47,175 bases of DNA from assembly GCA_964483225.1 (NCBI GenBank), contig CAZABU010000003.1:1-47175 (forward strand), given 5' to 3'. Positions 2,919-39,848 of the stretch are shown here, in pieces. The notes beneath the pieces are model-generated. The model ran no database searches. It had not been told where the DNA came from and saw nothing but the letters and a program-made list of their open reading frames with translations. Each line of letters begins with the position of its first letter. The first letter of the stretch is position 1. This DNA comes from an uncultured Ruminococcus sp. GTDB taxonomy: Bacteria; Bacillota; Clostridia; Oscillospirales; CAG-272. Position numbers and translations under genes: made by a program.

Positions 2919-3029
2919 CATTGAGTATGATTGTCGGCCTGTCCGGAATTTCGCGTTTTGGGCGGTCGAGCTTTTTATGCTAAAAATATTTTCTTATTTG
3001 CGAGAAAGTGCGCAAAGGAAGGGCGAAAA

Positions 3030-4001: not shown

Positions 4002-4017
4002 GTGAAGGAGAAAAGAT

Positions 4018-4725: not shown

Positions 4726-4743
4726 TCACGGAAGGTGGTACAG

Positions 4744-6252: not shown

Positions 6253-6259
6253 TTTGCAA

Positions 6260-7912: not shown

Positions 7913-7924
7913 GGAGGTGCAGAA

Positions 7925-10843: not shown

Positions 10844-10908
10844 TACTGCTTCGGACACCGATTTTCCCTTATAAATGGAAAAAATATATAAAAATATATA
10901 AAAAAGGT

Positions 10909-10937
10909 TTGCATTTTCCGAAATAGTATGTTATAAT
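10909..10937 (+). promoter_or_regulatory. Near-consensus sigma-A promoter (TTGCAT-17-TGtTATAAT) with an upstream A/T-rich tandem 10-mer
   Basis: TTGCAT is at 10909-10914 and TATAAT at 10932-10937, with a TGt extension. AAAATATATA occurs twice at 10881-10900 and looks like an UP element. The leader contains the stem-loop GGGCAGG-N8-CCTGCCC at 10956-10977. Confidence 0.65.
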
Positions 10938-11007
10938 TATCTTTGCTCAATAAAAGGGCAGGTCCCAGAGCCTGCCCGAATTGAAATATTATATAAGGAT
11001 GAAAGAT

Positions 11008-13284
11008 ATGAAAAAGAGAATTATCGCTGCGATCGTTGCTATGGTAATGCTCGTTCTTTCTCTCGCGAGCTGCGGCAGCTTTAACTTCGCGGAAGAGAAT
11101 CTGGATGGCTACGTAGTATTCGACGCCGACGCTTTCAAGAAAGCGCTTGCAACAATTGAGGTCGAGGACGAGGACTTTACCACCGATGAGACCGTCCGCG
11201 CGCAGAAGGTCGTTGATGACCTTTACGCCACCCTTACCGCCGCTATGATCAAGGCTGCCGGCGATGAGGATAAGATCAAGAACGGCACCCCCTCCGAGCG
11301 TGACGCCGTTTACTTCTGCTACTACTGCGTAGATGCAGACGGCAACGTGTTCTACACCTCTCAGATGAAGGACAGCACCGTTACCGCTTCTACTACCAAG
11401 GCAAATCACCTGGTTCAGCTCGTTGATTACGATGAGGATAACGAGCTTCAGTCTGCTATCGCCGAGGCGCTTCTCGCTGCTATCGGTGAGGGCAAGGAGT
11501 TCTCCGAGTATAAGATCAACACCACCAATGGCACCGCGGTAAACACCAAGACCGAGGGTGAGGGCGAGAATGCCAAGACCCCCGACACCGTAGTCGTTTC
11601 CTACAAGGTGACCTACGAGCTTCCCGCAGTTGACGAGGACGGCAACCCCGTGTTTGACGATGATAACAACCCCACCTACGACTCCTACACCAAGGTCGTA
11701 AACTATGAGGAGATCGACCTTTCCGCAGATACCCCTCTCGCTACCTACCTTCGCGGCGACGAGGTTACTATGACCGTCGGCAACAAGGCGTATATCACCG
11801 AGGGTGAGGGCGAGGGCGCAACAAAGAACTATACCCTCAAGGTTACCGAAACCGTTGATGAGAACGAGGGCGTTGTTTGCAGCTACACCGAGTTCACCGT
11901 TCAGTGGATCGTAGAGGAGAAGCCCGACGAGGCTTACGTTACCGTAAAGCACACTCCCTACACCTCCTCCAACAGCATTGAGCCTGATAACAGACACAAC
12001 ACCAGCTCCAAGGTTGACCTCAACGACAAGGAGCTCACCTACTACATCTACCCCGTATATTACGTATCCGTTCCCGAGATCTCCGCTACCTCTATTATGA
12101 AGAACATTCTCGGCAAGAACATTTCCGCCACCACTATTGAGATCTTCGAGAGCGAGGAGTACAAGGCCGGCGATAAGACCGTCAAGGCTATGATCGAAAC
12201 TCTCGTTAAGACCTGGGGCGAGGACGAGGATACTCTTAAGACCCTTAAGGTTACCGTTGATAACGCCGAGAAGACCCTCTATGATCTCCACGAGGCATAT
12301 AACGAGGCGGCTGATGCCGTAACCGCGGCAGGCGACAATGCCACTGACGAGCAGAATACCGCTAAGGAAACCACCAAGAAGGCTTACGACGATGCTCTTG
12401 ATGCCGAGATCGATAAGCAGATCGCAAGCATTCTCACCGCTACCAAGGCAGATGCAAAGGCTATCTCCGAGGTTATCGTTGAGCAGTACAAGAGCGACAT
12501 CATTTACAAGAAGCTCAAGGACACCTACGACAACGATATGATCGAGAAGGTGGGCGCAGAGGTTTGGAAGCTCATTGAGAAGTACGCTGTCATCCACGAT
12601 TATCCCGCAGATCTCGTCGAGGAGTTCGTTGATCACCTCTACGAGGGCTATGAGAATGAGTTCTACACCGGCGATAAGGATTCCAGCACCACCAACTACG
12701 ACTACTACGGCGATCTCAACACATACCTCGTAGCTCAGGTAGGCGAGGACGTTGACGCAGGCCTCGAGAAGGAGGCTAAGGCTGCTATTGATCCTATGCT
12801 CAAGATCTACGCCGCTGCAAAGGCTCTCGAGTCCGACGCGGTTGCTGCTCTTACCTTATACGTCGAGAAGGATATAGCCGCCGGCGTTTACGACGCAGAC
12901 TACGAGTACAACGATTCTCTCTCCGAGAAGAAGAATGAGAAGAAGAAGGCCGAGGCAGAGAAGGCCGCAGAGGAGGCTAAGGCTGAGGCTCTTGAGGATG
13001 CCACCAAGTTTGTCGTTACCGACAAGGTCTTCAAGGAATACAAGAAGGACATCGGTAAGGCCACCTACAGAGTATGGGAGGAGCAGTACGGCGAGATCAA
13101 CATTCGCCTTGCCCTTCAGAGCAACCGCCTGTTCTACTATCTGCTTGCTACCGACATTGCAAAGAACGAGGATGGCGACCTTGAGGTATCCTACGCCACC
13201 GTTGGCGAGGGCGAGAGCGCAACCAAGGTCATCAGCTTCAGAACCTTCACCTACTCCATCAAGGCAGAGACCGACGCTGAATAA
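11008..13284 (+). CDS. Lipoprotein, acidic, with a trigger-factor-C-terminal-like helical region (paralog of 13934..15715)
   Basis: The signal peptide plus lipobox reads MKKRIIAAIVAMVMLVLSLAS|C. The protein is 758 aa, with recurring T/V-(E)GEGE motifs and a C-terminal Lys/Glu/Ala helical region. I chose the ATG at 11008 behind an AAGGA RBS. Confidence 0.65.
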   Translation: MKKRIIAAIVAMVMLVLSLASCGSFNFAEENLDGYVVFDADAFKKALATIEVEDEDFTTDETVRAQKVVDDLYATLTAAMIKAAGDEDKIKNGTPSERDAVYFCYYCVDADGNVFYTSQMKDSTVTASTTKANHLVQLVDYDEDNELQSAIAEALLAAIGEGKEFSEYKINTTNGTAVNTKTEGEGENAKTPDTVVVSYKVTYELPAVDEDGNPVFDDDNNPTYDSYTKVVNYEEIDLSADTPLATYLRGDEVTMTVGNKAYITEGEGEGATKNYTLKVTETVDENEGVVCSYTEFTVQWIVEEKPDEAYVTVKHTPYTSSNSIEPDNRHNTSSKVDLNDKELTYYIYPVYYVSVPEISATSIMKNILGKNISATTIEIFESEEYKAGDKTVKAMIETLVKTWGEDEDTLKTLKVTVDNAEKTLYDLHEAYNEAADAVTAAGDNATDEQNTAKETTKKAYDDALDAEIDKQIASILTATKADAKAISEVIVEQYKSDIIYKKLKDTYDNDMIEKVGAEVWKLIEKYAVIHDYPADLVEEFVDHLYEGYENEFYTGDKDSSTTNYDYYGDLNTYLVAQVGEDVDAGLEKEAKAAIDPMLKIYAAAKALESDAVAALTLYVEKDIAAGVYDADYEYNDSLSEKKNEKKKAEAEKAAEEAKAEALEDATKFVVTDKVFKEYKKDIGKATYRVWEEQYGEINIRLALQSNRLFYYLLATDIAKNEDGDLEVSYATVGEGESATKVISFRTFTYSIKAETDAE

Positions 13285-21342: not shown

Positions 21343-22780
21343 ACGTTGGCTTGAGCGTCTTTACGACAAGCTCCCCTTCACCTTCGGGCGCAGGTATATC
21401 TCTCTGTACGTCGGTATGGTCCTCGCCACCGTTATGGGGATCGTGGCGGGAACGGCGGTCTATGTCATCGGACGGCTCGTTTCCTATCAGATAATAGATA
21501 CGGTATATGCCACTCCCGAGCACCGGCGGGCGCGGACGGAGGCTTATATCGGCGAGCTGCAGACGTATATAGACGTAGAGGAGCTTTCCTTCCGTGATAC
21601 CGACAGTATCGGCGACTGGGTCGAGAAAAAGGGCTATACGTACCTGACTCTTTATAAGGACGGCAGCCTTTATTTCAGCACCGACATCGGTTATACTGAC
21701 AGGGCCGCCGCGACGGAGCCGCCCTTACCCTCGGACGGCGGTACGCTTGCGGAATATGCGGCGCAGACGGGGCTTTACGTCCTTGAATTCCGCGACGGAG
21801 CTCTGCTTGCATCTATATCCGAGTTTACCGAGATGCTTTATTACGATCTGGGCAACGGAATCAGCCTTGTGGCTGCCATGCTGGCTATGTCCACTATCAT
21901 CATAGGCTATCTGCGCCTGATAATCGTCAGAATAAAGAGACTGGGCAGTGACGTTACCGTCGTTGCCTACGGTGACAACAGCCACAGCATCGAGGTCGAG
22001 GGCTACGACGATATATCGAAGCTGGCCTCCGAGGTTGAGCTTATGCGCCAGAATATGCTGGATAACATCAGCAAGGAGCGAAAGGCCAGGGACGCAAACA
22101 CCGACCTTATCACCTCTATGTCCCACGATATAAGGACACCCTTGACGGTCATACTCGGTTATCTTGATATGATGAAAAACGAGCTCCCGCCGGAGCAGAT
22201 GGCGTCCTACGTCGATTCCTGCGAGAAGACGGCGCTGAGGCTCAAAAACCTCTCGGACGATATGTTCAGATACTTCCTCGCCTTCGGAAACACGGGCGAC
22301 GGAATATCGCTTGAGGAATACGATGCGCAGACCCTGCTGGAGCAGCTCCTGACCGAGCATCTTCTCCTGCTTTCCGAGAGCGGTTATATAACCGACGTGG
22401 AAGAGGAGGACGATCTTCTGGAGGAGGGTACCACCATCGTCACAGACCCTCCGAATCTTATGCGCATCATCGACAATATTTTTTCCAATTTCTACAAATA
22501 CGCAGATAAGGAGCATCCCGTATCGCTCCACCTCTCCAAGCTCGGTGACGTTCTGGTGCTGAAGTTCACCAACCGTATCAAGACCGATTCCACAGGCGTG
22601 GAGAGCAATAAAATAGGACTCAAGTCGTGCGCAAGGCTGGCAGAATTCCTCACCGAGGGATTTGAGTATAAGGCGGAGGACGGTGTCTATTCCACGAGAA
22701 TGGCCCTGAAGATAATTCCGCCCCAGAAGAACAGCACCAGAGTCGCGATACCCGGTGAGGAGATCTATGATCAGCTTTAA
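21335..22780 (+). CDS. Sensor histidine kinase (2 TM segments plus a periplasmic-type loop)
   Basis: The H-box is SMSHDIRTPLTVILGYLDMM and the N-box is IIDNIFSNFYKYA. The TTG start overlaps the regulator stop by 8 nt. Confidence 0.85.
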   Translation: MIKRWLERLYDKLPFTFGRRYISLYVGMVLATVMGIVAGTAVYVIGRLVSYQIIDTVYATPEHRRARTEAYIGELQTYIDVEELSFRDTDSIGDWVEKKGYTYLTLYKDGSLYFSTDIGYTDRAAATEPPLPSDGGTLAEYAAQTGLYVLEFRDGALLASISEFTEMLYYDLGNGISLVAAMLAMSTIIIGYLRLIIVRIKRLGSDVTVVAYGDNSHSIEVEGYDDISKLASEVELMRQNMLDNISKERKARDANTDLITSMSHDIRTPLTVILGYLDMMKNELPPEQMASYVDSCEKTALRLKNLSDDMFRYFLAFGNTGDGISLEEYDAQTLLEQLLTEHLLLLSESGYITDVEEEDDLLEEGTTIVTDPPNLMRIIDNIFSNFYKYADKEHPVSLHLSKLGDVLVLKFTNRIKTDSTGVESNKIGLKSCARLAEFLTEGFEYKAEDGVYSTRMALKIIPPQKNSTRVAIPGEEIYDQL

Positions 22781-23684
22781 GGAATTTTCCCCCGACAACA
22801 GAGTTGAGGTTGCCGAGCACCTCCTGTCCCTGCTGCCTGAGGCCGCTGAGGATATTACCGCGGTGGTTGAGAGCTGCCTGCAGATGGCCGAGGATAACCC
22901 CGACGTGGAGCTTGCCCTCTGTATATCAAACGGTTGCGCGCTCGTGCGTATCTTTGAGCTCGGCAGATATTATTTCGCATATCCGATCGCCCTTATTGAC
23001 GGCGCCGACGGCTACGGTGCTCTTGAGGAGCTTCGAGCATATTCGGTGAAGGAGGAGGTGCCTCTGGTGCTGGTTGACGTGCCGAGGGAGGAGCTCCTCT
23101 CTGCCGTGGGCTACTTCAGACACACCTCGGTGGATATGAGCGACGCGGAGGGAGAATGCTTCCGCGTGACGGCACAGAGTGAGGCCTCGCTCCTCTCGGA
23201 GCTGCCTCTGCCCTCGGTGGCCGCCGTAACCCTTTCGCCTCTGCTCGACGAGCATACCGAGCCCTACGCCGCTCTTTGCCGCGACAGCGAGGTCAACAAA
23301 TATTGGGGCTACGACTTCCGCGGGGATGCGCCCGACGCCGAGGACGGATATTTCATACGCTCGGCGCGTATGGAGCTTGCCCGCGGAGTCAGCGTCACCT
23401 ACGCCGCAACCGAGAAGAATAACTTCGTCGGCGAGGCGGTGATATACGCCTTCGACCTGCTCGGCGGCGCAGAGATAGCCTTCAGGCTTCTGCCCGAGTG
23501 GCAGGGAAAGGGCCTTGGCAGAGCCACCCTTGAGGCTCTTATCGAGGCGGGACGCGCTATGGGGCTCCTTCGCCTTTATGCCACCGTCCACGGGGAGAAC
23601 GTCCCCTCGCTGAAGCTCCTCTCCCACTATGCGGAGGGCGAAATGGGCGAGGACGGAAGAGTTCATTTTGTTATAGAGCTATAA
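22767..23684 (+). CDS. GNAT-family N-acetyltransferase with an extra N-terminal domain
   Basis: The C-terminal half has the acetyl-CoA motif LLPEWQGKGLGRATLEALI...LYATVHGENVPSLKLL. The ATG at 22767 lies behind a GGTGAGGAG RBS and overlaps the kinase stop by 14 nt. Confidence 0.75.
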   Translation: MISFKEFSPDNRVEVAEHLLSLLPEAAEDITAVVESCLQMAEDNPDVELALCISNGCALVRIFELGRYYFAYPIALIDGADGYGALEELRAYSVKEEVPLVLVDVPREELLSAVGYFRHTSVDMSDAEGECFRVTAQSEASLLSELPLPSVAAVTLSPLLDEHTEPYAALCRDSEVNKYWGYDFRGDAPDAEDGYFIRSARMELARGVSVTYAATEKNNFVGEAVIYAFDLLGGAEIAFRLLPEWQGKGLGRATLEALIEAGRAMGLLRLYATVHGENVPSLKLLSHYAEGEMGEDGRVHFVIEL

Positions 23685-23743
23685 CCGTAAATTTTTGCGG
23701 TTTTAACATTGTTTGACAACTAAAGTTTACGAAAGGGGAGTGT

Positions 23744-26326
23744 ATGAAGAAAGCTACGGTCGGAATCCTCGCCCACGTTGACGCGGGAAAGACCACCTTG
23801 TCCGAGGCGCTTCTCTATTGCTCGGGAACGCTGGGAGCCCTCGGCAGGGTGGATAAGCGGGATACCTATCTTGACACCCATCCGATTGAGCGTGAGCGGG
23901 GAATCACCATTTTCTCAAAGCAGGCGATCCTCGAGCTGCCGAGCGTGTCCGTAACTCTGATAGACACTCCCGGTCACGTGGATTTCTCCTGCGAGGCGGA
24001 GCGGGCTCTCGGAATACAGGACTATGCAATTCTTATCGTGAATGCGGCGGACGGAGTTACCGCCCATACGAAGACTCTCTGGCATCTGCTGGTCGCAAAG
24101 AGCGTACCCACCTTTATCTTCGTAAACAAGACGGATATCTCGGAGCGGCGAAGGCCTCACCTGCTGGAGGAGCTGCGGTGTATGCTCTCCCCTCATTGTG
24201 TGGATTTCACCGATCAGAGCGGGGAGGAATTCCTTGAGTCGGTTGCCGCCTGTGACGAGCGGCTGATGGAGGAATTTTTCGAGAGCGACAGCCTCTCCGA
24301 GGCGAGCATCGCCGCGGCTATTGCCGCACGCAAGGTGTTCCCCTGCCTTTTCGGCTCTGCCCTGAAGCTGCGCGGCGTACCGGAGCTCATCAGCCTGCTG
24401 GATAAATATGTGATCCCGAAAAAATACTCCGATAGCATTTTCGGAGCAAAAATATATAAAATTTCAAGAGATCCGAAGGGTAAGCGGCTCAGCTACGCAA
24501 AGATCACCGGCGCCGCCGTAAGACCCAAGGATACCGTGACTTATCGCACTCCCTCGGGTGAGCTTGTCACCGAGAAGGTGGAGGAGATAAGGATCTACTC
24601 CGGCGATAAGTACAAGAGTGCCTCGGCTGCAGAGGCCGGTACGGTCTGCGCCCTGCTGGGACTCACCGCTACGGCGGCGGGTATGGGACTCGGTGCCGAG
24701 CTTTCCGACGAGCACACCCTGACCCCCGTCCTCGGCTACCGTATGCTTCTGCCGAGGGATGCAAACCCCTATGAAACCTATATGCGCCTGATGGTGCTTA
24801 CCGAGGAGGAACCCTCTCTTGGTATGACCTACGACCCCGCGACCCACGAGCTGCGCGTGCGGCTTATGGGCGAGATACAGACCGAGGTGCTGACCAAGAT
24901 GATCGCCGAGCGCTTCGGCCTTGAGGTGGGCTTCGACGAGGGCGCTATCCTCTATAAGGAAACCGTTGCCGAAAGCGTGCAGGGCGCCGGTCATTTCGAG
25001 CCCCTGCGCCATTATTCAGAGGTTCATCTGCGCATCGACCCTCTGCCCGAGGGTAGCGGCGTCGTGGCCGCAACAGAATGTCCCACCGATACCCTTGCCC
25101 TCAATTGGCAGAGGCTGGTGCTGACCCATATCGAGGAGCGCACCCATCGCGGCGTGCTTACCGGCGCCCCTCTTACCGACGTCAGAATAACTCTGACGGC
25201 AGGGCGTGCGCATCTGAAGCATACCGAGGGCGGCGATTTCAGACAGGCGACCTACCGGGCGATAAGGCAGGGACTTATGAAGGCCGAGAGCATTCTCCTT
25301 GAGCCCACCTTTGATTTCAAAATCGACGTGCCGAGCGAATACCTCGGCAGAGTGATGAACGATATTACCAATATGCACGGCGCTACCGCGCCCCCCGAGC
25401 TTCTTGACGATAGGGCTGTGCTGAGCGGCAGCTGTCCCGTGTTTACTATGCGCTCCTATCCGTCGACCCTTCGCGCCTTTACCCGAGGCGAGGGGCGGAT
25501 AGCGATGACCGTCGGGGCTTACGCCCCCTGTCACAACAGCGAGCAGGTGATCGCCGAGTCGGGCTATGATCCGAGCCTTGACGAGCGCAACCCTGCAGGC
25601 TCGGTGTTCTGCAAGGGCGGCTCGGGCTACGCCGTCCCCTGGGACGAGGCCGATGCCCTTATGCATCTGACTCCCACCGGTGCGCCCGCAACCGACGAGC
25701 CCCCTGCCGAGGCCGCCCGTGTGGCAAGGACTCGGAGCTATCGCGGCACCGTGGAGGAGGACAAGGAGCTTATGCGCATCTTCGAGAGCACCTACGGCAA
25801 GATAAAGCCAAGACGGGTGAGCGAGAGGGTGGAGAACGCCGCTCCTGCGGCAAAGACACAAAGGCCGAAAAAACCGACTCCGCGAGGCGAGGATTACGTC
25901 ATCGTGGACGGCTACAACTTTATCTTCGGCTGTGACGAGCTTCGGGGAGAGGGTGAGCGCGACCTTGGCCGTGCCCGTGATATGCTGGTGCGGGCGATGT
26001 GCGATTATACCGCCTTTACAAAGTGCCGCGCAATCGTCGTCTTTGATGCCTATAAGCGTGAGGGTGGTGAGGGTAGCGTTGAGCATATAGGCGGTGTCCG
26101 CGTGGTCTACACAAAGGAAAAGCAGACCGCCGACGCCTATATTGAAAAGGCTACCTACGATATGTCGGGGGAGCACACCGTCAGGGTCGTGACCTCGGAT
26201 ATGCAGGAGCAGCTGGTGGTGCTCGGCAGCGGAGGCCTGCGAGTCAGCGCCAAGGAATTTATGCGCGAGCTTTCGGATACCGCCGCCTTGATCGGAGAAA
26301 CCGCGGAGCGGCTATCCCGGGGCTGA
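23744..26326 (+). CDS. Tet(M)/EF-G-family translational GTPase fused to a C-terminal Rae1/YacP-type NYN ribonuclease domain
   Basis: G1 is AHVDAGKT, G2 is RGITI, G3 is DTPGH and G4 is NKTD. The length and collinearity fit a five-domain Tet(M)/EF-G factor up to about aa 642. A Pro/Lys/Arg-rich linker follows. Residues ~716-860 read IVDGYNFIF...AIVVFDAY...VVYTKEKQTADAYIEK...VVTSDMQEQ...LRVSAKEF, which are the YacP/Rae1 signature blocks. Confidence 0.85.
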   Translation: MKKATVGILAHVDAGKTTLSEALLYCSGTLGALGRVDKRDTYLDTHPIERERGITIFSKQAILELPSVSVTLIDTPGHVDFSCEAERALGIQDYAILIVNAADGVTAHTKTLWHLLVAKSVPTFIFVNKTDISERRRPHLLEELRCMLSPHCVDFTDQSGEEFLESVAACDERLMEEFFESDSLSEASIAAAIAARKVFPCLFGSALKLRGVPELISLLDKYVIPKKYSDSIFGAKIYKISRDPKGKRLSYAKITGAAVRPKDTVTYRTPSGELVTEKVEEIRIYSGDKYKSASAAEAGTVCALLGLTATAAGMGLGAELSDEHTLTPVLGYRMLLPRDANPYETYMRLMVLTEEEPSLGMTYDPATHELRVRLMGEIQTEVLTKMIAERFGLEVGFDEGAILYKETVAESVQGAGHFEPLRHYSEVHLRIDPLPEGSGVVAATECPTDTLALNWQRLVLTHIEERTHRGVLTGAPLTDVRITLTAGRAHLKHTEGGDFRQATYRAIRQGLMKAESILLEPTFDFKIDVPSEYLGRVMNDITNMHGATAPPELLDDRAVLSGSCPVFTMRSYPSTLRAFTRGEGRIAMTVGAYAPCHNSEQVIAESGYDPSLDERNPAGSVFCKGGSGYAVPWDEADALMHLTPTGAPATDEPPAEAARVARTRSYRGTVEEDKELMRIFESTYGKIKPRRVSERVENAAPAAKTQRPKKPTPRGEDYVIVDGYNFIFGCDELRGEGERDLGRARDMLVRAMCDYTAFTKCRAIVVFDAYKREGGEGSVEHIGGVRVVYTKEKQTADAYIEKATYDMSGEHTVRVVTSDMQEQLVVLGSGGLRVSAKEFMRELSDTAALIGETAERLSRG

Positions 26327-26478: not shown

Positions 26479-28164
26479 TTGAATTTAATTAAGGACAAAA
26501 TTATGGAGTCGGTGAAATCGGTATTGCCGATCGCGCTGATAGTGGTGGCGCTCAGCTTTACGCTCGTGCCCCTCTCCGCAGAAAATATGCTGCTATTCAT
26601 TATGGGTGTCGTGTGCCTGATATTCGGTATGAGCCTCTTTACCGCAGGTGCCGAGATGTCGATGCAGCCCTTGGGTACCAAGATAGGTACCTCTATTGCC
26701 GGCTCGGGCAAGATATGGCTCATTGCCTTCGTAAGCTTTATTATAGGTATTCTGGTTACCATATCCGAGCCCGATCTGCAGATCCTTGCCGAGCAGGTAA
26801 GCGGTCTGAAAAACGAGATACTGATACTGACCGTTTCCGTTGGCGTTGGCATCTTCCTGCTTATGGCGGTGCTCAGAATACTCTTTAACGTGAGCCTGGC
26901 TCTGATGATGGTAGTATTCTACGCGGTAGCCTTCGTGCTTGCCTTCTTCGTGGATCCCTCATTCCTTTCCCTTGCCTTTGACTCGGGCGGAGTTACCACG
27001 GGTCCCATGACCGTCCCCTTCATTATGTCCATCGGTGCAGGTGTTTCGGCGGCGAAGATATCCGGCGGCGGCCGTGGCGACTCCTTCGGTATCACCGGTC
27101 TTTGCAGCATCGGCCCCATCATCTCCGTGCTGGTGCTGGGAATCGTTATGAAGGTTGAGGGTACCTATGAGCCCTCCGTCCCCGCAGTTATGGAGGACAC
27201 CAGAGAGGGACTCGTTCTCTTCCTTCACGGCTTTGTAGAGCATGCCGTCGACGTGCTCGTGGCTCTCACTCCCATAATCGTTTTTGCAATAATCTTCCAG
27301 TACGTTACCAGAGCCTTTAACAAGGGTCAGCTCATCCGTATGGCCGTCGGTATCGTGTACGTCCTCGTGGGACTTACCGTTTTCCTTACCGGTGCAAACG
27401 TCGGCTTCCTTCCTACGGGTACCGCTATTGGAAGCGCCCTCGGCGGCATTGGCGGCGGCTGGCTCCTCGTTCCGATAAGCATGCTGCTCGGTTACTTCAT
27501 CGTAAAGGCCGAGCCCTCGGTCTACGTGCTCAACAAGCTGGTTGAGAAGATGAGCGCCGGCGCAATTTCGGGTAAGACCACCGGCTTCGGTCTGTCCGTG
27601 GGTGTGTGCGCGGCTCTCGGCCTCTCGGCCATCAGAATTATCACGGGAATACACATTCTCTGGTTCCTTATCCCCGGTTATATAATCGCCATCGGCCTCT
27701 CCTTCTTCGTTCCCAAGATGTTCGTGGGTATCTCCTTCGATGCGGGCGGAGTTGCAAGCGGTACGATGATGAGTGCCTTTGTGCTTCCTCTTTGTATGGG
27801 CGCCTGCAACGCCCTGGGCGGAAACGTTATGACCGACGCCTTTGGCTGCGTTGCCATGGTTGCGATGGCACCTATAATCGCCATCCAGCTTTGCGGACTT
27901 ACATACCGCGTTAAAAAGGCGGGCAGCGTGCGCAGATTCGTCAGCGCCTCCGAGACCTTCATTGATTACGGCTACCATGAGGCAAAGCGTCGCGCTGAGA
28001 GCGTAAAGCGCATCGCGTCGGCAGAGGGCGGCGTTCGTACAGTGCAGAAAAAGCGTACGGCAGATAAGGCCGCGACCACCGACGGTGCAGAGCAGACCGC
28101 AGAGGCTCCCGCCGAGAAAAGTGTTGCTTCCGTGGTCGCAGAGGGAAAGGCTGGTGAGAACTGA
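26479..28164 (+). CDS. DUF1538-type polytopic membrane protein (two fused homologous halves) with a disordered C-terminal tail
   Basis: 561 aa, extremely hydrophobic and Gly-rich. It has two similar halves (for example FDSGGVTTGPMTVPFIMSIG versus FDAGGVASGTMMSAFVLPLC). The TTG start is 6 nt after a GAGAGGAG RBS. The family call is from memory of the FDxGGVxxG repeat and the P-II neighbour. Confidence 0.6.
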   Translation: MNLIKDKIMESVKSVLPIALIVVALSFTLVPLSAENMLLFIMGVVCLIFGMSLFTAGAEMSMQPLGTKIGTSIAGSGKIWLIAFVSFIIGILVTISEPDLQILAEQVSGLKNEILILTVSVGVGIFLLMAVLRILFNVSLALMMVVFYAVAFVLAFFVDPSFLSLAFDSGGVTTGPMTVPFIMSIGAGVSAAKISGGGRGDSFGITGLCSIGPIISVLVLGIVMKVEGTYEPSVPAVMEDTREGLVLFLHGFVEHAVDVLVALTPIIVFAIIFQYVTRAFNKGQLIRMAVGIVYVLVGLTVFLTGANVGFLPTGTAIGSALGGIGGGWLLVPISMLLGYFIVKAEPSVYVLNKLVEKMSAGAISGKTTGFGLSVGVCAALGLSAIRIITGIHILWFLIPGYIIAIGLSFFVPKMFVGISFDAGGVASGTMMSAFVLPLCMGACNALGGNVMTDAFGCVAMVAMAPIIAIQLCGLTYRVKKAGSVRRFVSASETFIDYGYHEAKRRAESVKRIASAEGGVRTVQKKRTADKAATTDGAEQTAEAPAEKSVASVVAEGKAGEN

Positions 28165-28904
28165 TGAAAAAGATCAGCGACAATAAAAAAGTAAAGCTCC
28201 TTGTGGGTATAATCAACAAGGAGGATGAGCTCAGATTTACCGATATCGTCAACGAATACGCTACGGCGGTGCATTTCTCCGGCCTCGGCTACGGAACCGC
28301 GCGCTCAAGCTATATGACCTACTTCGGCTTCAACGAGATAGAGAAGTGCATCACTATGTCGCTTATACCCGGCGGCTCCGAGCACACCATTCTCAGTGCC
28401 ATCGGCCACGGGCTGAAGCTCTATCTTGTGGGAAGGGGAATCGCCTTTACGCTCCCCCTCTCGGGTATATCCAATCTGATAAACGACGCGGTGCTCTCGG
28501 GCGTTGATAAGTCCGATAGGCCTATGGGCAAGAGAGCCCCCATTTCAAAGAAAAAGGAGAAGGAACGGATGCATGAGCTTGTAATCGCGGTGGTAAACAG
28601 CAAGTACACCGACATAGCAATAGAGGCGGCAAGAGCCGCAGGCGCGACCGGCGCTACTATATTCAACACCAAAAGTATAAATAACGCAAAGGCGGAGCAG
28701 AGCATCGGTACTACTCTCAGACAGGAGACCGACAGCATCTTCTTCTTGACCAGCCTTGAGTATAAGACCAAGATCATGGAGGCGGTGCGTGACGTTGCCG
28801 GCCTCAAGACCGAGGGAAGTGCAATAATCTTCTCTCTCCCCGTTGACGATCTCGTAGGCATCGGCCGCTTCGAGGAATATATCGACGGAGAGGAAGACCG
28901 CTGA
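28164..28904 (+). CDS. Tandem P-II-like signal-transduction protein (two P-II-fold halves)
   Basis: The ATG overlaps the upstream TGA (TGATG). Both halves show a beta-alpha-beta / loop / beta-alpha-beta pattern resembling GlnB-like proteins: KLLVGIINKEDELRFTDIV...GIAFTLPLSGI and HELVIAVVNSKYTDIAIEAARAAGATGATIF...GSAIIFSLPVDDLVGI. Confidence 0.6.
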   Translation: MKKISDNKKVKLLVGIINKEDELRFTDIVNEYATAVHFSGLGYGTARSSYMTYFGFNEIEKCITMSLIPGGSEHTILSAIGHGLKLYLVGRGIAFTLPLSGISNLINDAVLSGVDKSDRPMGKRAPISKKKEKERMHELVIAVVNSKYTDIAIEAARAAGATGATIFNTKSINNAKAEQSIGTTLRQETDSIFFLTSLEYKTKIMEAVRDVAGLKTEGSAIIFSLPVDDLVGIGRFEEYIDGEEDR

Positions 28905-35020: not shown

Positions 35021-36982
35021 TCAAAGCGGCCGCTTTTCTCTGAGTCTCTCGCAGGTGGAGCGCATCAGCTCGGTGAGCTGGCGGATACCTATTTTGCTCT
35101 CTCCGTCGTGCCAGCCGGCAAAGTCGCCCTGCTCAAGGATCCTCCGCTCCGCGAGGATGCTCTCCATAGCCGCGACTCCGGTCTCAAGGGCGGCGGTTCT
35201 GCCCTCCTCGCTGACGGCGGTCATCATTTCGTAGACGGAGATGGTCCAGCGGGTGAGCTTCATCATATAAAATGCGCCGAATTTTATGAACCTTCTGAAA
35301 TATTCCCGGCTCCGCTCGGGCAGTCGGCTCTCCATAGCCGTCATTTTTTCGAGAACGGCGGCAAACCTGCTCTCGCTCTCTCGCAGCTTCTCGGTCACAG
35401 TGGCGTAGTCGCAGAGGTGGGTCTTGTCCCGAAGCAGGCATTGACCGATCTCATGGAGCTCGCCGTCGGTTGACGGAAATTCCGGGAAGAGGAGCCTGCC
35501 GTAGGGGTGATAATCGAAGCTGTGACGGTTGCAGAGTCCCACAAGCTCCATGGTGCCAAGGTCGGCGTAAGCGGCGAAGTACTCGTCGTAAAGATCGAGC
35601 ACAACGTCGGCGGCATCCCCGAAGATAGGCTTGAAGATACGGCGCAGCCCGGTGCGGGCACTAAGCTCCGGGTTTTCAAGGAGCCTCGCGTTAAGCTCCG
35701 CGCCGATATGAAGCGGGCGTAGGTTCGATACGTTGAGAATTGAATAATAAAGCGAGTCCCGCTTTGCCGCCTCGGAGTAGGAGAAGGCCATCTTGTGAGG
35801 GTCACAGCCCTCGGCCAGGTGAGGCCCCATGCCCCAAAAGCCTATGTGATAGTAAATACCGTAGCGGTGGCCGGGCTTTCGCTCCGTGACGTAAAAATCG
35901 TCGCCGAACATCTGCGACATACCGATATCGCTGAAGATCACGGCGGTGTCGGCGGGGATCCGCAGGTGTCCCGCGCCGTAAAGGGCGGCACCCTCCATCC
36001 ATAGGGTCGCCGTGGAGTGGAAGTCACCGTGGCCGAGCGCCTCCTCTATTATAGCGCGCTGGGTAGAGATGGCGTCTGAGATTATCTCGCCTCTGCCCTC
36101 GGGGCTCATCGGAACGTTCTTGTCTGCCTTCCAGACGGCCTGGTCAGCCTTGCCTCTCAGACCCAGCTGCCAGACGACCCTGTCGCCGTATTTCGCCCAT
36201 TTTTTCGCGTAATACCGCCACAGCTCCTCCATTCGTCCGCGGTTGGTAATGAAGGACACCGTCTCGCCCCGTCTGCCGTTTTTCTTTACATAGTCGGCGG
36301 CAGAGAAGTAGGACACGCCCATAGGCTCCACGTGGTGCTGGGATATATAAAGTCCGCGGCGGCATACCGCCTCAACCAGCGCCTCCTCGGCCGGGTTATC
36401 AATATTGACGAAGGAGGAGGGAATTATGAGGTTGATCTCCAGGCGCAGGGCACATTCGAGTATCATATCCAAAACGTCCGTGCGCATAACGCTCTGATAG
36501 AAGGGATAATCTATATCCCGCTTACCGCCTCCTCCGCGGAAATCGCCCAGCAGATCCTCGTCGTTGAGGAACCAGCCGCGGAACTTCACCCTCCGCTCTC
36601 CCGAGCGAATGACCTGTGGCGCGGCGGTGAGGGATTCCGGCCGTTCGGGGTACACCTCGGTCAGCGGATGCATAGGCGAGAAGCCCAGCACGCGCCCCGA
36701 AAAGGCGTAAACTCCAAAGACGGCGCCAAGAGTGTCGCCGCCTACGATCCGCACGGCGTTCTCGGTTATTTCTATTCGGTAGCTCTCGGGCTCCCCCTTC
36801 TCGATCTCAACGGATACGGAGCCGGGTGCGGTCTCGTTTTCGTGGACGATCTCAAAGCCGTGGGTGTGCCCCGAGAGAATACGGAAATCTCTCTGCAGAC
36901 TCTTTGCCGCCATGGCTATCGCGTCGGGTACACCGGGGTGGAGCGATATGCAGGCGGTGGTGGTTTTATTAAACAGTAACAT
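35021..36982 (-). CDS. Glycoside hydrolase family 115-like (putative xylan alpha-glucuronidase), intracellular
   Basis: The blocks GGDTLGAVFGVYAFSGRVLGFSP, VKFRGWFLNDEDLL, ALRLEINLIIPS, ISQHHVEPMG and WQLGLRGKADQ match my recollection of the conserved GH115 blocks (YRGIFLNDE, LRLKAN, SHHEPM, GMRG). There is no signal peptide. Confidence 0.65.
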   Translation of the reverse strand: MLLFNKTTTACISLHPGVPDAIAMAAKSLQRDFRILSGHTHGFEIVHENETAPGSVSVEIEKGEPESYRIEITENAVRIVGGDTLGAVFGVYAFSGRVLGFSPMHPLTEVYPERPESLTAAPQVIRSGERRVKFRGWFLNDEDLLGDFRGGGGKRDIDYPFYQSVMRTDVLDMILECALRLEINLIIPSSFVNIDNPAEEALVEAVCRRGLYISQHHVEPMGVSYFSAADYVKKNGRRGETVSFITNRGRMEELWRYYAKKWAKYGDRVVWQLGLRGKADQAVWKADKNVPMSPEGRGEIISDAISTQRAIIEEALGHGDFHSTATLWMEGAALYGAGHLRIPADTAVIFSDIGMSQMFGDDFYVTERKPGHRYGIYYHIGFWGMGPHLAEGCDPHKMAFSYSEAAKRDSLYYSILNVSNLRPLHIGAELNARLLENPELSARTGLRRIFKPIFGDAADVVLDLYDEYFAAYADLGTMELVGLCNRHSFDYHPYGRLLFPEFPSTDGELHEIGQCLLRDKTHLCDYATVTEKLRESESRFAAVLEKMTAMESRLPERSREYFRRFIKFGAFYMMKLTRWTISVYEMMTAVSEEGRTAALETGVAAMESILAERRILEQGDFAGWHDGESKIGIRQLTELMRSTCERLREKRPL

Positions 36983-37021
36983 ATTTTCTGACCTCCGATG
37001 GGAGCGTTTTTTCTATATTAT

Positions 37022-37051
37022 ATTATACATAATTTCCGGTACCGCCGTCAA
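37022..37051 (-). promoter_or_regulatory. Sigma-A promoter (TTGACG-18-TATAAT) for the GH115 gene
   Basis: The minus strand reads TTGACG (37051-37046), an 18-nt spacer, then TATAAT (37027-37022). Confidence 0.5.
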
Positions 37052-37096
37052 GAGAAAAAACAATAAAGCTTTAACACCTTCGGGCGCGGAACCGCA

Positions 37097-38011
37097 TCAG
37101 AGCGCCGTCTGCGTATCGTTCGGATCCCCGTTTCTTGCAAGGTCGTATTCCTTCGACCAATCGAGGTCGCGGTATTCCTCGCCGCGAGGATCGTTCTTGA
37201 TCCAATCGAGAAGCATATCAAGCATTTCCTCCGACCAGGTATTTTTGTCTATCTGCGCCGTTGTGAACTTGCCCTGACATATCATCTCAAAGCCGAAATC
37301 GTCCTTGACGTGGGTTTTGGCCGCGCCCTCAACAACGTCGGCAACGAGGTGGCTCGGAATGAACAGAACTCCGCCGCCCGCGCCGAAGACGACGTCGCCG
37401 GGTAGACACACCGCGCCGCCGAAGCTTGTAATATCGTTCCAGTCCTTCATGACGAACTCGCGTATGGGCGTGGGATCTATGCCTCTGTAATATACCTGGA
37501 CGTCGGGGACCTTTTTCATCTGCTCAACGTCACGGACTCCTCCCCAAACGACAGCTCCACCGGTTTTCGTGCGGTTATGTATAGCGGTAGTAAGATTTCC
37601 GCCAAGAAAAGTACCTTTGTAGATCTTATCGTACATATCGCAAACGACAACGTCGCGCTCCACCAAGGAGTCGATGACCCATTGATTATAGTTGCCCTTC
37701 AGTCCGTCCTCTGCACCGCGGTTGAACTGAACCTCGTGCAGATCGGGACGTGTGGGGGCGTAGGTGCAAGTCACAGCTCTGCCGACGAGCTTTCTGCCGT
37801 CGTCGTGGAGCGTCTGCATCGGTGCTTCGCCGCCACCTACGAACTGATGCTCGTAGCCAAGAACGAATATAGGCTTCCAAACCTCTTCAAGCGTCATTCC
37901 GTAAAGCGCGTCTAGATACTTGTCGGCTACCTTCGGGCGTCCGTCCGGAAAGCGCTCGCCCTGCCAAAGAGGGGTCAGGGCTATAATTTTTTCTCTGTCG
38001 TTGAAATTCAT
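37097..38011 (-). CDS. RraA-family protein (class II aldolase / decarboxylase-like) with an N-terminal extension
   Basis: The block FLGGNLTTAIHNRTKTGGAVVWGGVRDVEQM resembles the RraA/HMG-aldolase core (G..la..a...G..G.VidG.vRD). At 304 aa it is longer than canonical RraA. Confidence 0.55.
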   Translation of the reverse strand: MNFNDREKIIALTPLWQGERFPDGRPKVADKYLDALYGMTLEEVWKPIFVLGYEHQFVGGGEAPMQTLHDDGRKLVGRAVTCTYAPTRPDLHEVQFNRGAEDGLKGNYNQWVIDSLVERDVVVCDMYDKIYKGTFLGGNLTTAIHNRTKTGGAVVWGGVRDVEQMKKVPDVQVYYRGIDPTPIREFVMKDWNDITSFGGAVCLPGDVVFGAGGGVLFIPSHLVADVVEGAAKTHVKDDFGFEMICQGKFTTAQIDKNTWSEEMLDMLLDWIKNDPRGEEYRDLDWSKEYDLARNGDPNDTQTAL

Positions 38012-38022
38012 TATTTATCTCC

Positions 38023-38967
38023 TTAAATTAAAGAATCAAGTATGCCCTTCAGATATCCGATGGCAAACATTCTGCCGAGGGCGTCGTAGCCGGGCAGGGT
38101 GGATATCTCGCCGGCCATTGTGGGTACGTGGTCAACTCTGACAGGCACGTCGATACCGAGGCTTGCGTAGCCGCGCATTACCGCTGCCATATCAATATCG
38201 CCGTTGTCGTGGAAGGTTTCTCGGAAGGAGGTAGGCACTCCCTTGGTATTTCTGAAATGAACGAAGGCTATCTTGTCGGCGAACTCCTCTGCCACGTCGA
38301 GTATGCTCTCACCCATTATATGAAAATTCGCCTGACACATAGTGAGTCCCAGCGAGGGAGAGGGACGGATATCCCTGATCGCCCGTCTTATGTTTTCTCT
38401 CGAGATCATTATTCGCTCCACGCCGCCGAGGGCGGGCAGGGGCGGGTCGTCGGGATGAAGGGCAAGGACGATTCCGTGCTTTTCCGCCTCGGGCAGGACC
38501 GCATCAAGAAAATACTTGTAGTTTTCCCAAAGCCTGTCGGCTGTAATGCAGGCGTCGGTGCCCTTGAAATCCGCTATATCAAAGGCGGTAACCTTAGCGC
38601 CTCCGCGCTCCGGAAAGTCGGAGCGGGTCCTCAGCCAGCCGATATGAGCCATAAAGTTGAAGCATATCGTGCCGATGCCAAGCTCATGCATTATGGGGAG
38701 CATCTTTATCACCTTTTCTATGCACTCGTCGCGCATTTCGTCGCCCGCCTTGATGTGGTCGTGGAGGGCGTTCGGCATAGGCTCGATGATTATAGGGGTT
38801 ATACCGAAATCGGTAAAGCTCTTGTGTACCGTTTCCCAGTGCCCCTTATTTGTGACGTCAAAATCTGCCGACTCGGGCAGTCTTACGGTGCCGTGACGTA
38901 CGCCGCATTGAAGGCCGATGTCCCAGGTTGCGTCACGGGTAGAACGAAAGTAGTCTGTAAGAATCAT
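38023..38967 (-). CDS. uxuA: Mannonate dehydratase
   Basis: Its blocks ICFNFMAHIGWLRT, LALHPDDPPLPALGGVERI, VHFRN, FHDNGDIDM and RVDHVPTM...PGYDALGRMFAIGYLKG are collinear with E. coli UxuA. I chose the ATG at 38967 behind an AAGGAGAGG RBS, 11 nt after the upstream stop. Confidence 0.85.
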   Translation of the reverse strand: MILTDYFRSTRDATWDIGLQCGVRHGTVRLPESADFDVTNKGHWETVHKSFTDFGITPIIIEPMPNALHDHIKAGDEMRDECIEKVIKMLPIMHELGIGTICFNFMAHIGWLRTRSDFPERGGAKVTAFDIADFKGTDACITADRLWENYKYFLDAVLPEAEKHGIVLALHPDDPPLPALGGVERIMISRENIRRAIRDIRPSPSLGLTMCQANFHIMGESILDVAEEFADKIAFVHFRNTKGVPTSFRETFHDNGDIDMAAVMRGYASLGIDVPVRVDHVPTMAGEISTLPGYDALGRMFAIGYLKGILDSLI

Positions 38968-38977
38968 GGCCTCTCCT

Positions 38978-39817: not shown

Positions 39818-39848
39818 ATAAAACCTCCGTATATGTAAATAATTATTG

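What the first reader, a model, noticed from the sequence alone, without database searches (positions are those of the whole stretch)
23744..26326. Tet(M)/EF-G-family GTPase covalently fused to a Rae1/YacP-type NYN endoribonuclease: a possible GTPase-delivered, ribosome-targeted RNase
One uninterrupted 860-codon ORF has three parts. (1) Residues 1 to ~642 carry all the G motifs (AHVDAGKT, RGITI, DTPGH, NKTD). Their N terminus is closer to Tet(M)/Tet(O)-type factors (LAHVDAGKTTL.E.LLY.SG) than to housekeeping EF-G. (2) Residues ~643-715 (nt ~25671-25888) form a Pro/Lys/Arg/Ala-rich linker. (3) Residues ~716-860 (nt 25889-26323) carry the YacP/Rae1 NYN blocks IVDGYN, VVFDAY, YTKEKQTADAYIEK, VTSD and LRVSAKEF, with the acidic residues expected for catalysis retained. 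B. subtilis Rae1/YacP is reported to cut mRNA inside the ribosomal A site in a translation-dependent way. Tet(M)/EF-G factors dock at the same A-site / GTPase-associated centre. A fusion therefore suggests a factor that uses GTPase-type ribosome binding to position an RNase. It could act in stalled-ribosome mRNA surveillance or rescue, or in regulated translation shut-off. I do not know of a characterised protein with this architecture.
Basis: partly seen in the sequence, partly recalled or inferred. Interest (0 to 1): 0.85.

Follow-up and report, generated by a model that had tools for sequence, protein, structure and literature searches.

The report
Tet/EF-G-like GTPase fused to Rae1 RNase
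A gut Clostridia gene really does encode one protein joining a ribosome-binding GTPase to an RNA-cutting enzyme that acts on stalled ribosomes; the fusion is widespread and was noted in 2015 and 2017, but nobody has tested what it does.

Summary
Window 23744-26326 (+) is one 860-codon ORF with GTP_EFTU, EFG_III/IV/C and NYN_YacP domains, all above Pfam cut-offs. It is not an assembly artefact. The same single-ORF fusion occurs in 73 of 80 species-representative Clostridia genomes examined, and six of the other seven are cut by contig ends. In a 122-sequence family alignment the GTPase residues (P-loop, catalytic His78, NKxD) are invariant. So are the NYN aspartates D722 and D797, which match B. 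subtilis Rae1 D7 and D81.

The architecture is not new. Atkinson 2015 listed ten such "Tet" proteins, and Matelska 2017 noted the TetM-NYN_YacP fusion. I found no experimental characterisation.

It is not a classical tetracycline protection protein. It scores 374 bits against a 775-bit cut-off. Tet(M) loop-III Pro509 is replaced by a conserved Lys. The gene sits in ordinary, variable chromosomal contexts.

Best reading, by inference: an accessory GTPase that tethers a Rae1-type mRNA endonuclease to stalled ribosomes through a length-constrained linker of about 73 residues.

The parts
23732..23740 (+). Shine-Dalgarno-like AAAGGGGAG, 3 nt upstream of the ATG
   Evidence: Read directly from the sequence.
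23744..26326 (+). Complete 860-codon ORF plus stop: Tet/EF-G-like GTPase fused to a Rae1-type NYN RNase
   Evidence: The same single-ORF architecture is seen in 73 of 80 related genome loci and in 49/49 aligned family members by Pfam.
23744..24412 (+). G domain, residues 1-223: P-loop AHVDAGKT (23771-23794), DTPGH with catalytic His78 (23975-23977), NKTD (24125-24136)
   Evidence: Pfam GTP_EFTU E=1.1e-44. K16, T17, H78, N128, K129 and D131 are invariant in 122/122 sequences.
24413..24943 (+). Domains II and III, residues 224-400
   Evidence: EFG_III hit at 349-396. AF2 gives a confident beta-barrel and alpha/beta fold. Foldseek matches EF-G/TetM.
24944..25288 (+). Domain IV, residues 401-515, with the family-specific tip loop GRAHLKHTEGGDFR (residues 487-500, nt 25202-25243)
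   Evidence: Pfam EFG_IV E=2.5e-17. In the pairwise alignment Tet(M) S508/P509/V510 pair with L491/K492/H493 here. K492 is Lys in 117/122 and H493 is His in 118/122.
25289..25543 (+). Domain V, residues 516-600
   Evidence: Pfam EFG_C E=2.7e-16.
25535..25678 (+). Conserved post-domain-V extension, residues 598-645: one helix, a beta-hairpin and a short helix. Family consensus from residue 592: GYxPCHN..EV....GYDP..D..NP..SVFC.HGAG..VPW
   Evidence: Conservation. AF2 pLDDT is about 87-91. No Pfam model covers it.
25679..25753 (+). Disordered tether segment 1, residues 646-670; variable sequence, roughly neutral charge
   Evidence: AF2 pLDDT <50 for 648-672. Column conservation 0.25. Median net charge 0.
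25754..25807 (+). Conserved amphipathic helix motif inside the tether, residues 671-688: EEDKELMRIFESTYGKIK
   Evidence: L676 119/122, I679 115/122, F680 114/122, T683 115/122, Y684 114/122, G685 118/122. AF2 predicts helix 671-684 but with low positional confidence. The motif is absent from stand-alone Rae1, which starts at the NYN fold.
25808..25891 (+). Disordered tether segment 2, residues 689-716; rich in Lys, Arg and Pro
   Evidence: AF2 pLDDT <50 for 688-713. Net positive charge in 96% of 122 sequences; 16% K, 11.5% R, 12.7% P.
25892..26323 (+). Rae1/YacP-type NYN endoribonuclease domain, residues 717-860. Catalytic Asp codons: D722 (25907-25909), D768 (26045-26047), D797 (26132-26134), D819 (26198-26200)
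   Evidence: Pfam NYN_YacP E=4.5e-39. Alignment to 5MQ8. 40% identity to B. subtilis Rae1. Asp residues invariant. AF2 pLDDT about 90.

Best explanation
The gene encodes an accessory translational GTPase, a Tet/EF-G paralogue that is neither the housekeeping translocase nor a classical tetracycline protection protein. It carries a catalytically competent Rae1-type NYN endoribonuclease on a flexible tether of about 73 residues.

Shown here:
- Both active sites are under strict purifying selection.
- The five-domain EF-G-like body is intact.
- The tether is disordered apart from one conserved helix, and its length is constrained.
- The NYN domain is about as similar to B. subtilis Rae1 as an orthologue would be.

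Inferred mechanism: in the GTP form, the body docks at the ribosomal factor-binding site with domain IV in or at the A site. This holds the nuclease at high local concentration on ribosomes that are stalled or blocked in translocation. The nuclease then cuts mRNA outside the A site. The most plausible position is the mRNA-entry side of the ribosome the factor sits on. In a collision, that is the stretch between the collided and the stalled ribosome, where Rae1 cuts are mapped. GTP hydrolysis releases the factor. The truncated mRNA is then handled by tmRNA rescue and mRNA decay. The fusion would make permanent what stand-alone Rae1 achieves through a transient ribosome association.
For: - Domain content and scores.
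- 49/49 family members carry both GTP_EFTU and NYN_YacP.
- The single fused ORF is found in 73 of 80 loci from different species.
- At least 47 full-length cluster representatives at 50% identity are among the best 150 hits.
- In 122 sequences, K16, T17, H78, NKxD, D722, D768 and D797 are invariant. The tether has a median of 73 residues (IQR 70-77). The basic segment is net positive in 96%.
- D722 and D797 correspond to Rae1 D7 and D81, whose D7N D81N mutant is inactive (PMC10351889).
- B. subtilis Rae1 is 40% identical to the window NYN domain and a median 43.5% identical to the family.
- AF2: ordered body 1-645, disordered 648-672 and 688-713, ordered NYN domain. The fold matches ribosome-bound EF-G and TetM.
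- Rae1 acts on stalled or collided ribosomes and feeds tmRNA (PMC12407103; PMC13622287). The preprint notes that stand-alone Rae1 binds ribosomes only transiently.
- Genomes that carry the fusion, R. albus 7 and E. eligens, also encode a canonical EF-G. The fusion is therefore an extra factor (Atkinson Additional file 2).
Against: - There is no experimental evidence for any member. Ribosome binding, GTPase activity, RNase activity and the substrate are all inferred from homology.
- The tether's contour length is about 220 Å, so it could reach almost any site on the same or a neighbouring ribosome. Its length does not discriminate between cleavage sites.
- No conserved neighbour genes such as smpB, ssrA or rqcH link it to rescue pathways.
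- I could not determine whether genomes with the fusion also keep a stand-alone Rae1.
- Which ribosome state the GTPase recognises is unknown. The domain IV tip is family-specific and resembles neither a validated Tet loop nor a validated EF-G loop.
Confidence: 0.5

Rival explanations
1. It acts on ribosomal RNA or tRNA, not mRNA. Two versions are possible. One is a ribosome-assembly or quality-control factor in which a translation-like GTPase checkpoint licenses an rRNA-trimming nuclease. The other is a factor that inactivates or degrades ribosomes under stress.
For: Before Rae1 was characterised, NYN_YacP was predicted to work in rRNA/tRNA maturation, based on the gltX-cysS-mrnC-yacO-yacP operon (PMC5499597; PMC4342817). 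A precedent recalled from my own knowledge, not tested here: the eukaryotic PIN-domain nuclease Nob1 cuts pre-18S rRNA in 80S-like particles, stimulated by the GTPase eIF5B/Fun12. The long basic tether would suit rRNA contacts equally well.
Against: The only experimentally studied NYN_YacP protein, Rae1, cuts mRNA in a translation-dependent way. The fused domain is 40-44% identical to it, with an identical catalytic set. No rRNA-processing or assembly genes are conserved next to the fusion.
Confidence: 0.2
2. One reading: the GTPase delivers the NYN domain into the A site, where it cuts the A-site codon, as RelE does.
For: The 2017 docking model for Rae1, as cited in PMC12407103. The EF-G/Tet fold is directed at the A site.
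Against: [quoted passage not shown] In EF-G and Tet complexes domain IV itself occupies the A site (established structures such as 3J9Y and 4V5F, which are among the fold matches). That leaves no room for a 16-kDa NYN domain on the same ribosome.
Confidence: 0.08
3. It is a tetracycline ribosomal protection protein whose extra RNase domain contributes to resistance, as Atkinson suggested in 2015.
For: The best NCBIfam model is tet_protect and the best PDB sequence matches are Tet(O)/Tet(M). Atkinson placed these proteins in the Tet subfamily. Some database records name them as TetM/W/O/S family proteins.
Against: - The tet_protect score of 373.9 is far below the 775 cut-off, and every specific Tet model is also far below its cut-off.
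- Tet(M) loop III is called functionally the most important part. Its Pro509 sits in the drug site (PMC4750697; PMC8161019). Here it is replaced by a different, family-invariant loop, with P509 changed to Lys in 117/122.
- The Tet C-terminal helix region is replaced by a different conserved extension.
- The gene is chromosomal, in variable housekeeping contexts with no mobile-element genes, and its composition matches its neighbours.
- It is present in hundreds of Clostridia species.
Confidence: 0.07
4. It is a toxin-like or anti-phage translation shut-off effector that destroys mRNA on ribosomes when triggered.
For: Ribosome-dependent RNases are common toxins. The 2026 preprint speculates that Rae1 could act against phage transcripts.
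Against: No PADLOC defence-model hit. No conserved adjacent immunity or sensor gene. The gene is a broadly conserved single-copy gene in ordinary chromosomal settings.
Confidence: 0.05
5. It is an artefact: two adjacent genes joined by mis-assembly, frameshift or a lost stop codon.
For: None specific. The window is a metagenome-type contig, and one related locus (L033) has a split gene.
Against: The same junction, with a conserved helix motif inside the linker, appears in 73 independent species genomes. It also appears in ten finished isolate genomes listed in 2015. GC and GC3 are uniform across the parts.
Confidence: 0.01

Closest known systems
TetM-like / NYN_YacP fusion proteins of Clostridia (Atkinson 2015 Additional file 8; Matelska et al. 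2017). Examples: Ruminococcus albus 7 YP_004106010, Ruminiclostridium thermocellum YP_001036467, Eubacterium rectale YP_002936483, Desulfitobacterium hafniense DSY1131
   Same: Identical architecture. The same domain IV loop (GRAHxKHTEGGDFR), the same post-domain-V extension, the same linker helix motif and the same NYN catalytic blocks. 47% end-to-end identity to the R. albus and R. thermocellum proteins.
   Different: Only in sequence divergence, and in lacking the extra C-terminal tail that some members carry (NYN start to C terminus is 137-180 residues). None of these proteins has been characterised.
Bacillus subtilis Rae1 (YacP), PDB 5MQ8/5MQ9
   Same: NYN_YacP fold. 40% identity over Rae1 residues 2-131. 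All four active-site aspartates are kept, including D7 and D81. Presumably the same chemistry and a ribosome-associated mRNA substrate.
   Different: Rae1 is a stand-alone protein of about 170 residues that binds ribosomes only transiently and sits in the gltX-cysS-mrnC-yacO-yacP operon. Here the domain is the C-terminal module of an 860-residue GTPase, is preceded by a conserved helix and a basic tether, covers Pfam profile positions 1-137 of 166, and lies in an unrelated gene context.
Tet(M)/Tet(O) ribosomal protection proteins (PDB 3J9Y, 4V6V)
   Same: Five-domain EF-G-like GTPase with a shortened G' region. One continuous alignment over about 600 residues. The best-scoring characterised relatives.
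   Different: About 27% identity. Below all Tet HMM cut-offs. Loop III YSPVS is replaced by HLKHT, with Pro509 changed to Lys. Different C-terminal extension plus the NYN domain. Chromosomal and not associated with mobile elements.
Elongation factor G (fusA)
   Same: Overall fold and G motifs, and the probable binding site on the ribosome.
   Different: 21-25% identity. EF-G HMM scores are 303 against a 583 cut-off and 238 against a 659 cut-off. Genomes with the fusion keep a separate EF-G.
Functional analogues in stalled-ribosome surveillance: SmrB (E. coli), Cue2/NONU-1, and Hbs1-Dom34 (eukaryotes)
   Same: The concept only. SmrB and Cue2 are endonucleases that cut mRNA at collided ribosomes. 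Hbs1 is a translational GTPase that brings a rescue factor to a stalled ribosome (and established knowledge).
   Different: The nuclease folds are unrelated (SMR versus NYN). In those systems the GTPase and the nuclease are separate proteins. Here they would be one polypeptide. No homology is implied.

Membership tests
TetM-like/NYN_YacP fusion family of Clostridia (Atkinson 2015; Matelska 2017) | A single polypeptide with an N-terminal Tet/EF-G-like five-domain GTPase and a C-terminal NYN_YacP domain | tested here: met
   The same holds in 49/49 aligned relatives.
TetM-like/NYN_YacP fusion family of Clostridia (Atkinson 2015; Matelska 2017) | End-to-end homology to the published members | tested here: met
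   47% identity over 860-865 aligned columns to R. albus 7 YP_004106010 and R. thermocellum YP_001036467.
TetM-like/NYN_YacP fusion family of Clostridia (Atkinson 2015; Matelska 2017) | Occurrence in Clostridia | tested here: met
   The closest genomes are Clostridia, Eubacteriales and Oscillospiraceae MAGs. The window also carries spoIIE.
Rae1/YacP NYN endoribonucleases (Pfam PF05991) | Match to the NYN_YacP model above the gathering score | tested here: met
   134.5 bits against a 24.6-bit cut-off.
Rae1/YacP NYN endoribonucleases (Pfam PF05991) | Catalytic aspartates equivalent to Rae1 D7 and D81 (plus D53 and D104) | tested here: met
   D722, D797, D768 and D819 align with them and are invariant in the family. 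The D7N D81N mutant is inactive (PMC10351889).
Rae1/YacP NYN endoribonucleases (Pfam PF05991) | A stand-alone single-domain protein in the gltX-cysS-mrnC-yacO-yacP context | tested here: not met
   It is fused to a GTPase. Its neighbours are a two-component system, a GNAT, DUF1538 and cls.
Rae1/YacP NYN endoribonucleases (Pfam PF05991) | Translation-dependent mRNA cleavage upstream of stalled ribosomes | not testable with these tools
   Requires in vivo or in vitro cleavage mapping.
Tet-type ribosomal protection proteins | Score at or above the NCBIfam tet_protect cut-off | tested here: not met
   NF012153 scores 373.9 bits against 775. Tet(M/W/O/S) scores 249 against 1100. Otr(A) scores 295 against 900. 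Tet(Q) scores 223 against 1425.
Tet-type ribosomal protection proteins | Domain IV loop III (Tet(M) L505-V510, with Pro509 contacting C1054 in the tetracycline site) | tested here: not met
   The alignment pairs Y507/S508/P509/V510 with H490/L491/K492/H493. K492 is Lys in 117/122. The role of the loop is described in PMC4750697 and PMC8161019.
Tet-type ribosomal protection proteins | A C-terminal extension with the Tet C-terminal helix | tested here: inconclusive
   The alignment to Tet(O) ends at about residue 596 (GYxP). A different conserved extension follows at 598-645. No structural superposition on the Tet helix was possible.
Tet-type ribosomal protection proteins | Confers tetracycline resistance | not testable with these tools
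   Requires MIC measurement.
Elongation factor G | Score at or above the EF-G equivalog or subfamily cut-offs | tested here: not met
   NF009381 scores 303.4 against 583. TIGR00484 scores 238.3 against 659.4.
Translational GTPase superfamily (trGTPases) | G1-G4 motifs with the catalytic His after DxxG, plus EF-G-type domains II-V | tested here: met

The most novel reading that the evidence does not exclude
The protein is a self-contained bacterial 'no-go decay' factor. An EF-G/Tet-like GTPase senses ribosomes that cannot translocate or that have an idle A site. This includes the trailing ribosome of a collision, whose mRNA entrance faces the tail of the stalled ribosome. GTP hydrolysis acts as a timer that licenses a cut by the tethered Rae1 nuclease. 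In many Clostridia this would replace or supplement stand-alone Rae1, and it would show where and how Rae1-type nucleases engage the ribosome. It would be the first example of a translational GTPase directly delivering a nuclease.
Probability: 0.3. Interest if true: 0.8.

Novelty: new member of a known kind. Interest (0 to 1): 0.55.

Why it matters
Rae1 has just been placed at the centre of a Gram-positive pathway that rescues collided ribosomes (2025 NAR paper; 2026 preprint). How it recognises ribosomes is unknown, because its binding is too transient to capture. A natural, widely conserved fusion of Rae1 to a factor-site GTPase is a "Rosetta stone" clue. It suggests that the nuclease works together with the GTPase-associated centre. 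It also offers a stable complex for cryo-EM, using a non-hydrolysable GTP analogue.

The family is common in gut and rumen Clostridia, including Faecalibacterium, Ruminococcus, Oscillibacter, E. rectale and the cellulolytic model R. thermocellum. Its physiology therefore matters for abundant commensals.

There is also a practical point. These proteins are sometimes annotated as Tet(M/W/O/S)-family resistance proteins, although they fail the family's score cut-off and lack the loop that displaces the drug. This can inflate resistome counts in metagenomes.

Tried and rejected
1. **Conserved operon partners.** tblastn of ten window neighbours against 80 related loci, and all-against-all clustering of flanking ORFs, found none. 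The most frequent flanking cluster is a generic ABC-type protein in 10 of 81 loci. The local synteny RR-HK-GNAT-fusion-DUF1538-cls holds only in close relatives. I dropped the idea that the upstream RimJ/RimL-type GNAT is a functional partner.

2. **A second NYN or trGTPase gene in the window or in the 80 loci.** None was found. The sequence held is too short to say anything about the rest of each genome.

3. **Defence-system models (PADLOC).** No hit.

4. **Whole-model fold search.** It returns only EF-G/EF-2/TetM bodies. No PDB entry spans both modules, so it added nothing on how the NYN domain is positioned.

5. **First attempt at measuring tether length.** The regex-based measure missed more than half of the sequences. 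I replaced it with an alignment-based measure.

6. **A possible Cys/His metal site in the 596-625 extension.** Rejected, because those residues are not among the positions conserved at 90% or more and His625 is Gly in the window protein.

7. **Looking up the window protein's own contig.** It is not on record.

8. **The 2017 EMBO J Rae1 paper.** It is not held in the library. I took the catalytic-residue information from PMC10351889 instead.


Full report
**1. The observation**

Window 23744-26326 (+) is a single open reading frame of 860 codons followed by a stop. An AAAGGGGAG ribosome-binding site lies 3 nt upstream of the ATG.

Pfam finds five domains above their gathering scores:
- GTP_EFTU, residues 4-223, E=1.1e-44
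- EFG_III, 349-396
- EFG_IV, 401-515
- EFG_C, 518-600
- NYN_YacP, 719-853, E=4.5e-39

The NYN part aligns with the B. subtilis Rae1/YacP crystal-structure sequence 5MQ8 over Rae1 residues 2-131 (E=1.7e-21), at 40% identity. The GTPase part scores a little better against Tet(O)/Tet(M) (234/230 bits, one continuous alignment) than against EF-G (about 203 bits, two pieces). NCBIfam ranks tet_protect first.

**2. Not an artefact, and not rare**

- A search with the last 221 residues against 1.84 billion cluster representatives gave 102 hits at E<=1e-30. The best 150 all belong to this lineage. Of these, 47 are full-length proteins of 798-1156 residues; 46 carry the G3 and G4 motifs and one (P0186) lacks its N terminus. 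Most of the rest are fragments that still contain the linker motif.
The 80 best are almost all labelled Clostridia: Oscillospiraceae, Ruminococcus, Oscillibacter, Dysosmobacter, Faecalibacterium, Lawsonibacter, Acutalibacteraceae, Anaerotruncus, Ruminiclostridium, Anaerovoracaceae.
- In 73 of those 80 loci the gene is one uninterrupted fused ORF. Six are cut by the contig end and one is split.
- GC and GC3 are uniform over the three parts and the neighbouring genes.

**3. Anatomy**

I aligned 122 family members.
- The P-loop Lys/Thr, the catalytic His78 of DTPGH and the NKxD motif are invariant.
- So are NYN residues D722, Y724, N725, R745, D768, T790, D797 and Q823. D819 is conserved in 121/122.
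- D722 and D797 are the equivalents of Rae1 D7 and D81, the two residues mutated in the inactive D7N D81N enzyme (PMC10351889).
- Both catalytic centres are therefore maintained by selection.

The AlphaFold2 model (mean pLDDT 86, pTM 0.65) shows the following:
- a confident five-domain body plus a small conserved extension (598-645: helix, hairpin, short helix);
- two disordered stretches (648-672 and 688-713) flanking a helix at 671-684;
- a confident NYN domain (717-860).

The "linker" is therefore structured in part. The helix motif (family consensus D.EL..IFERTYG..K) is nearly invariant, for example L676 in 119/122 and G685 in 118/122. The second disordered stretch is Lys/Arg/Pro-rich and net positive in 96% of sequences. 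The total tether length (residues 645 to 717) is tightly distributed, with a median of 73 residues and an IQR of 70-77.

Foldseek against the PDB returns ribosome-bound EF-G, EF-G2, EF-2 and TetM. No entry covers both modules.

**4. Context**

The gene sits among ordinary chromosomal genes:
- Upstream: spoIIE, a response regulator/histidine kinase pair, and a GNAT.
- Downstream: a DUF1538 membrane protein, a cardiolipin synthase and an EamA transporter.
- Further out: ABC transporter genes, RNase H and a glucuronate-utilisation cluster.

No mobile-element genes and no tRNAs are present. The local gene order is kept in an 80%-identical relative but not across the family. No flanking gene family occurs in more than 10 of 81 loci. 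The protein has no conserved operon partner and no defence-system signature.

**5. What is already known**

The architecture is in the literature.
[quoted passage not shown] That paper suggested a novel resistance mechanism (PMC4342817).
- The sequences are in its Additional file 8: R. albus 7, E. eligens, E. rectale, Butyrivibrio proteoclasticus, C. cellulolyticum, C. lentocellum, L. phytofermentans, R. thermocellum and D. hafniense.
- The window protein is 47% identical over its full length to the R. albus and R. thermocellum members.
- Matelska et al. 2017 noted the same TetM-NYN_YacP fusion and called its role unclear (PMC5499597).
- Atkinson's genome table shows that R. albus 7 and E. eligens also have a canonical EF-G. 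The fusion is therefore an additional factor.
- Five literature searches found no experimental work on any member.

**6. Is it a tetracycline protection protein?**

Probably not.
- Its tet_protect score is 374 bits against a cut-off of 775. All specific Tet models are far below threshold, as are the EF-G models.
- Loop III of domain IV is described as functionally the most important part of Tet(M). Its Pro509 lies in the drug site against C1054 (PMC4750697; PMC8161019).
- In the pairwise alignment Tet(M) Y507-S508-P509-V510 corresponds to H490-L491-K492-H493 here. The replacement loop G(R/K)AHxKHTEGGDFR is itself nearly invariant in the family. It is therefore a different, selected function and not a decayed Tet loop.
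- The chromosomal, non-mobile, variable context and the wide vertical-looking spread point the same way.

**7. How it most likely works**

[quoted passage not shown] It explicitly set aside the A-site docking model (PMC12407103).
- A 2026 preprint shows Rae1-dependent tmRNA tagging after ribosome collisions. It also notes that Rae1's ribosome association is transient and structurally uncharacterised (PMC13622287).
- In EF-G and Tet complexes, domain IV occupies the A site (established structures; fold matches). The tethered NYN domain therefore cannot be there on the same ribosome.

My best reading is inference from the anatomy plus this literature. The GTPase docks at the factor site of a stalled or translocation-blocked ribosome and holds the nuclease nearby. 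The nuclease cuts mRNA outside the A site. The mRNA-entry side of a collided ribosome faces the tail of the stalled ribosome. The preprint describes the collision interface as uS7/uS11 of the stalled ribosome against uS3 of the collided one. A factor bound to the trailing ribosome would thus place the nuclease near the mapped Rae1 cut.

The tether has 58 disordered residues plus a 14-residue helix, a contour length of about 220 Å. That is long enough to reach almost anywhere on the ribosome, so geometry alone does not decide the site. The narrow length distribution and the conserved helix suggest a specific docking arrangement that remains unexplained.

**8. Rivals**

- **An rRNA/tRNA-directed role in assembly, quality control or ribosome inactivation.** This is the main alternative (0.2). 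It fits the older operon-based prediction for YacP and the Nob1/eIF5B precedent (the latter from my own knowledge). It conflicts with the close similarity to an enzyme shown to cut mRNA.

**9. What I could not test**

I could not test whether genomes with the fusion also keep a stand-alone Rae1. This is the most informative cheap computation still to do.

**10. Verdict**

This is a real, conserved, bifunctional-looking protein and a member of a family catalogued since 2015 but never studied. The A-site mechanism and the implied novelty are not. Interest is moderate to high. The new Rae1 collision-rescue work turns this fusion into a direct structural and mechanistic handle, but the finding itself is not new.

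Noticed in passing
window 4735-13284 (+): Four consecutive large ORFs (505, 568, 972 and 767 aa) directly downstream of an ABC transporter ATPase/permease pair (2931-4725). None has a Pfam hit at E<=1e-5.
   Followed up: no
window 26479-28904 (+): A DUF1538 membrane protein (561 aa) is followed, with overlapping stop and start, by a 246-aa ORF that has no Pfam hit. The pair is conserved next to the fusion gene in an 80%-identical relative (L081).
   Followed up: partly
window 22755-23684 (+): A 309-aa protein with a C-terminal RimJ/RimL-type GNAT (Acetyltransf_3) lies 59 nt upstream of the fusion gene. It seemed a tempting link to ribosomal-protein acetylation, but it is a neighbour only in close relatives (0 of 80 family loci).
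   Followed up: yes
window 35021-41198 (-): A glucuronate/xylan side-chain utilisation cluster: GH115 alpha-glucuronidase, an RraA-like protein, UxuA, a short-chain dehydrogenase and UxaC. This fits a plant-fibre-degrading gut organism.
   Followed up: no
L045 and L076 (fusion gene at L045:3229-5823 and L076:691-3369): Two fused-gene loci come from MAGs labelled Bacteroides and Alloprevotella. Every other locus is labelled as Clostridia or a related Bacillota lineage. The likely cause is mis-binned contigs rather than transfer to Bacteroidota.
   Followed up: no
L033:8405-10564: This is the only locus where the gene is split. A 720-aa ORF lacks the G domain, which indicates a frameshift, pseudogene or assembly error.
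   Followed up: no
P0158 (1156 aa), P0202 (1069 aa), and Butyrivibrio/E. rectale members in Atkinson's file: Some family members carry much longer tethers or extra insertions (tether up to 137 residues) or a C-terminal tail of about 40 residues (RNYL..L....EE). The window protein lacks these.
   Followed up: partly
P0037 and similar database records: Public annotation sometimes names these proteins 'TetM/TetW/TetO/TetS family tetracycline resistance ribosomal protection protein'. They score under half the family cut-off and lack the drug-displacing loop. This risks over-counting resistance genes in gut metagenomes.
   Followed up: partly
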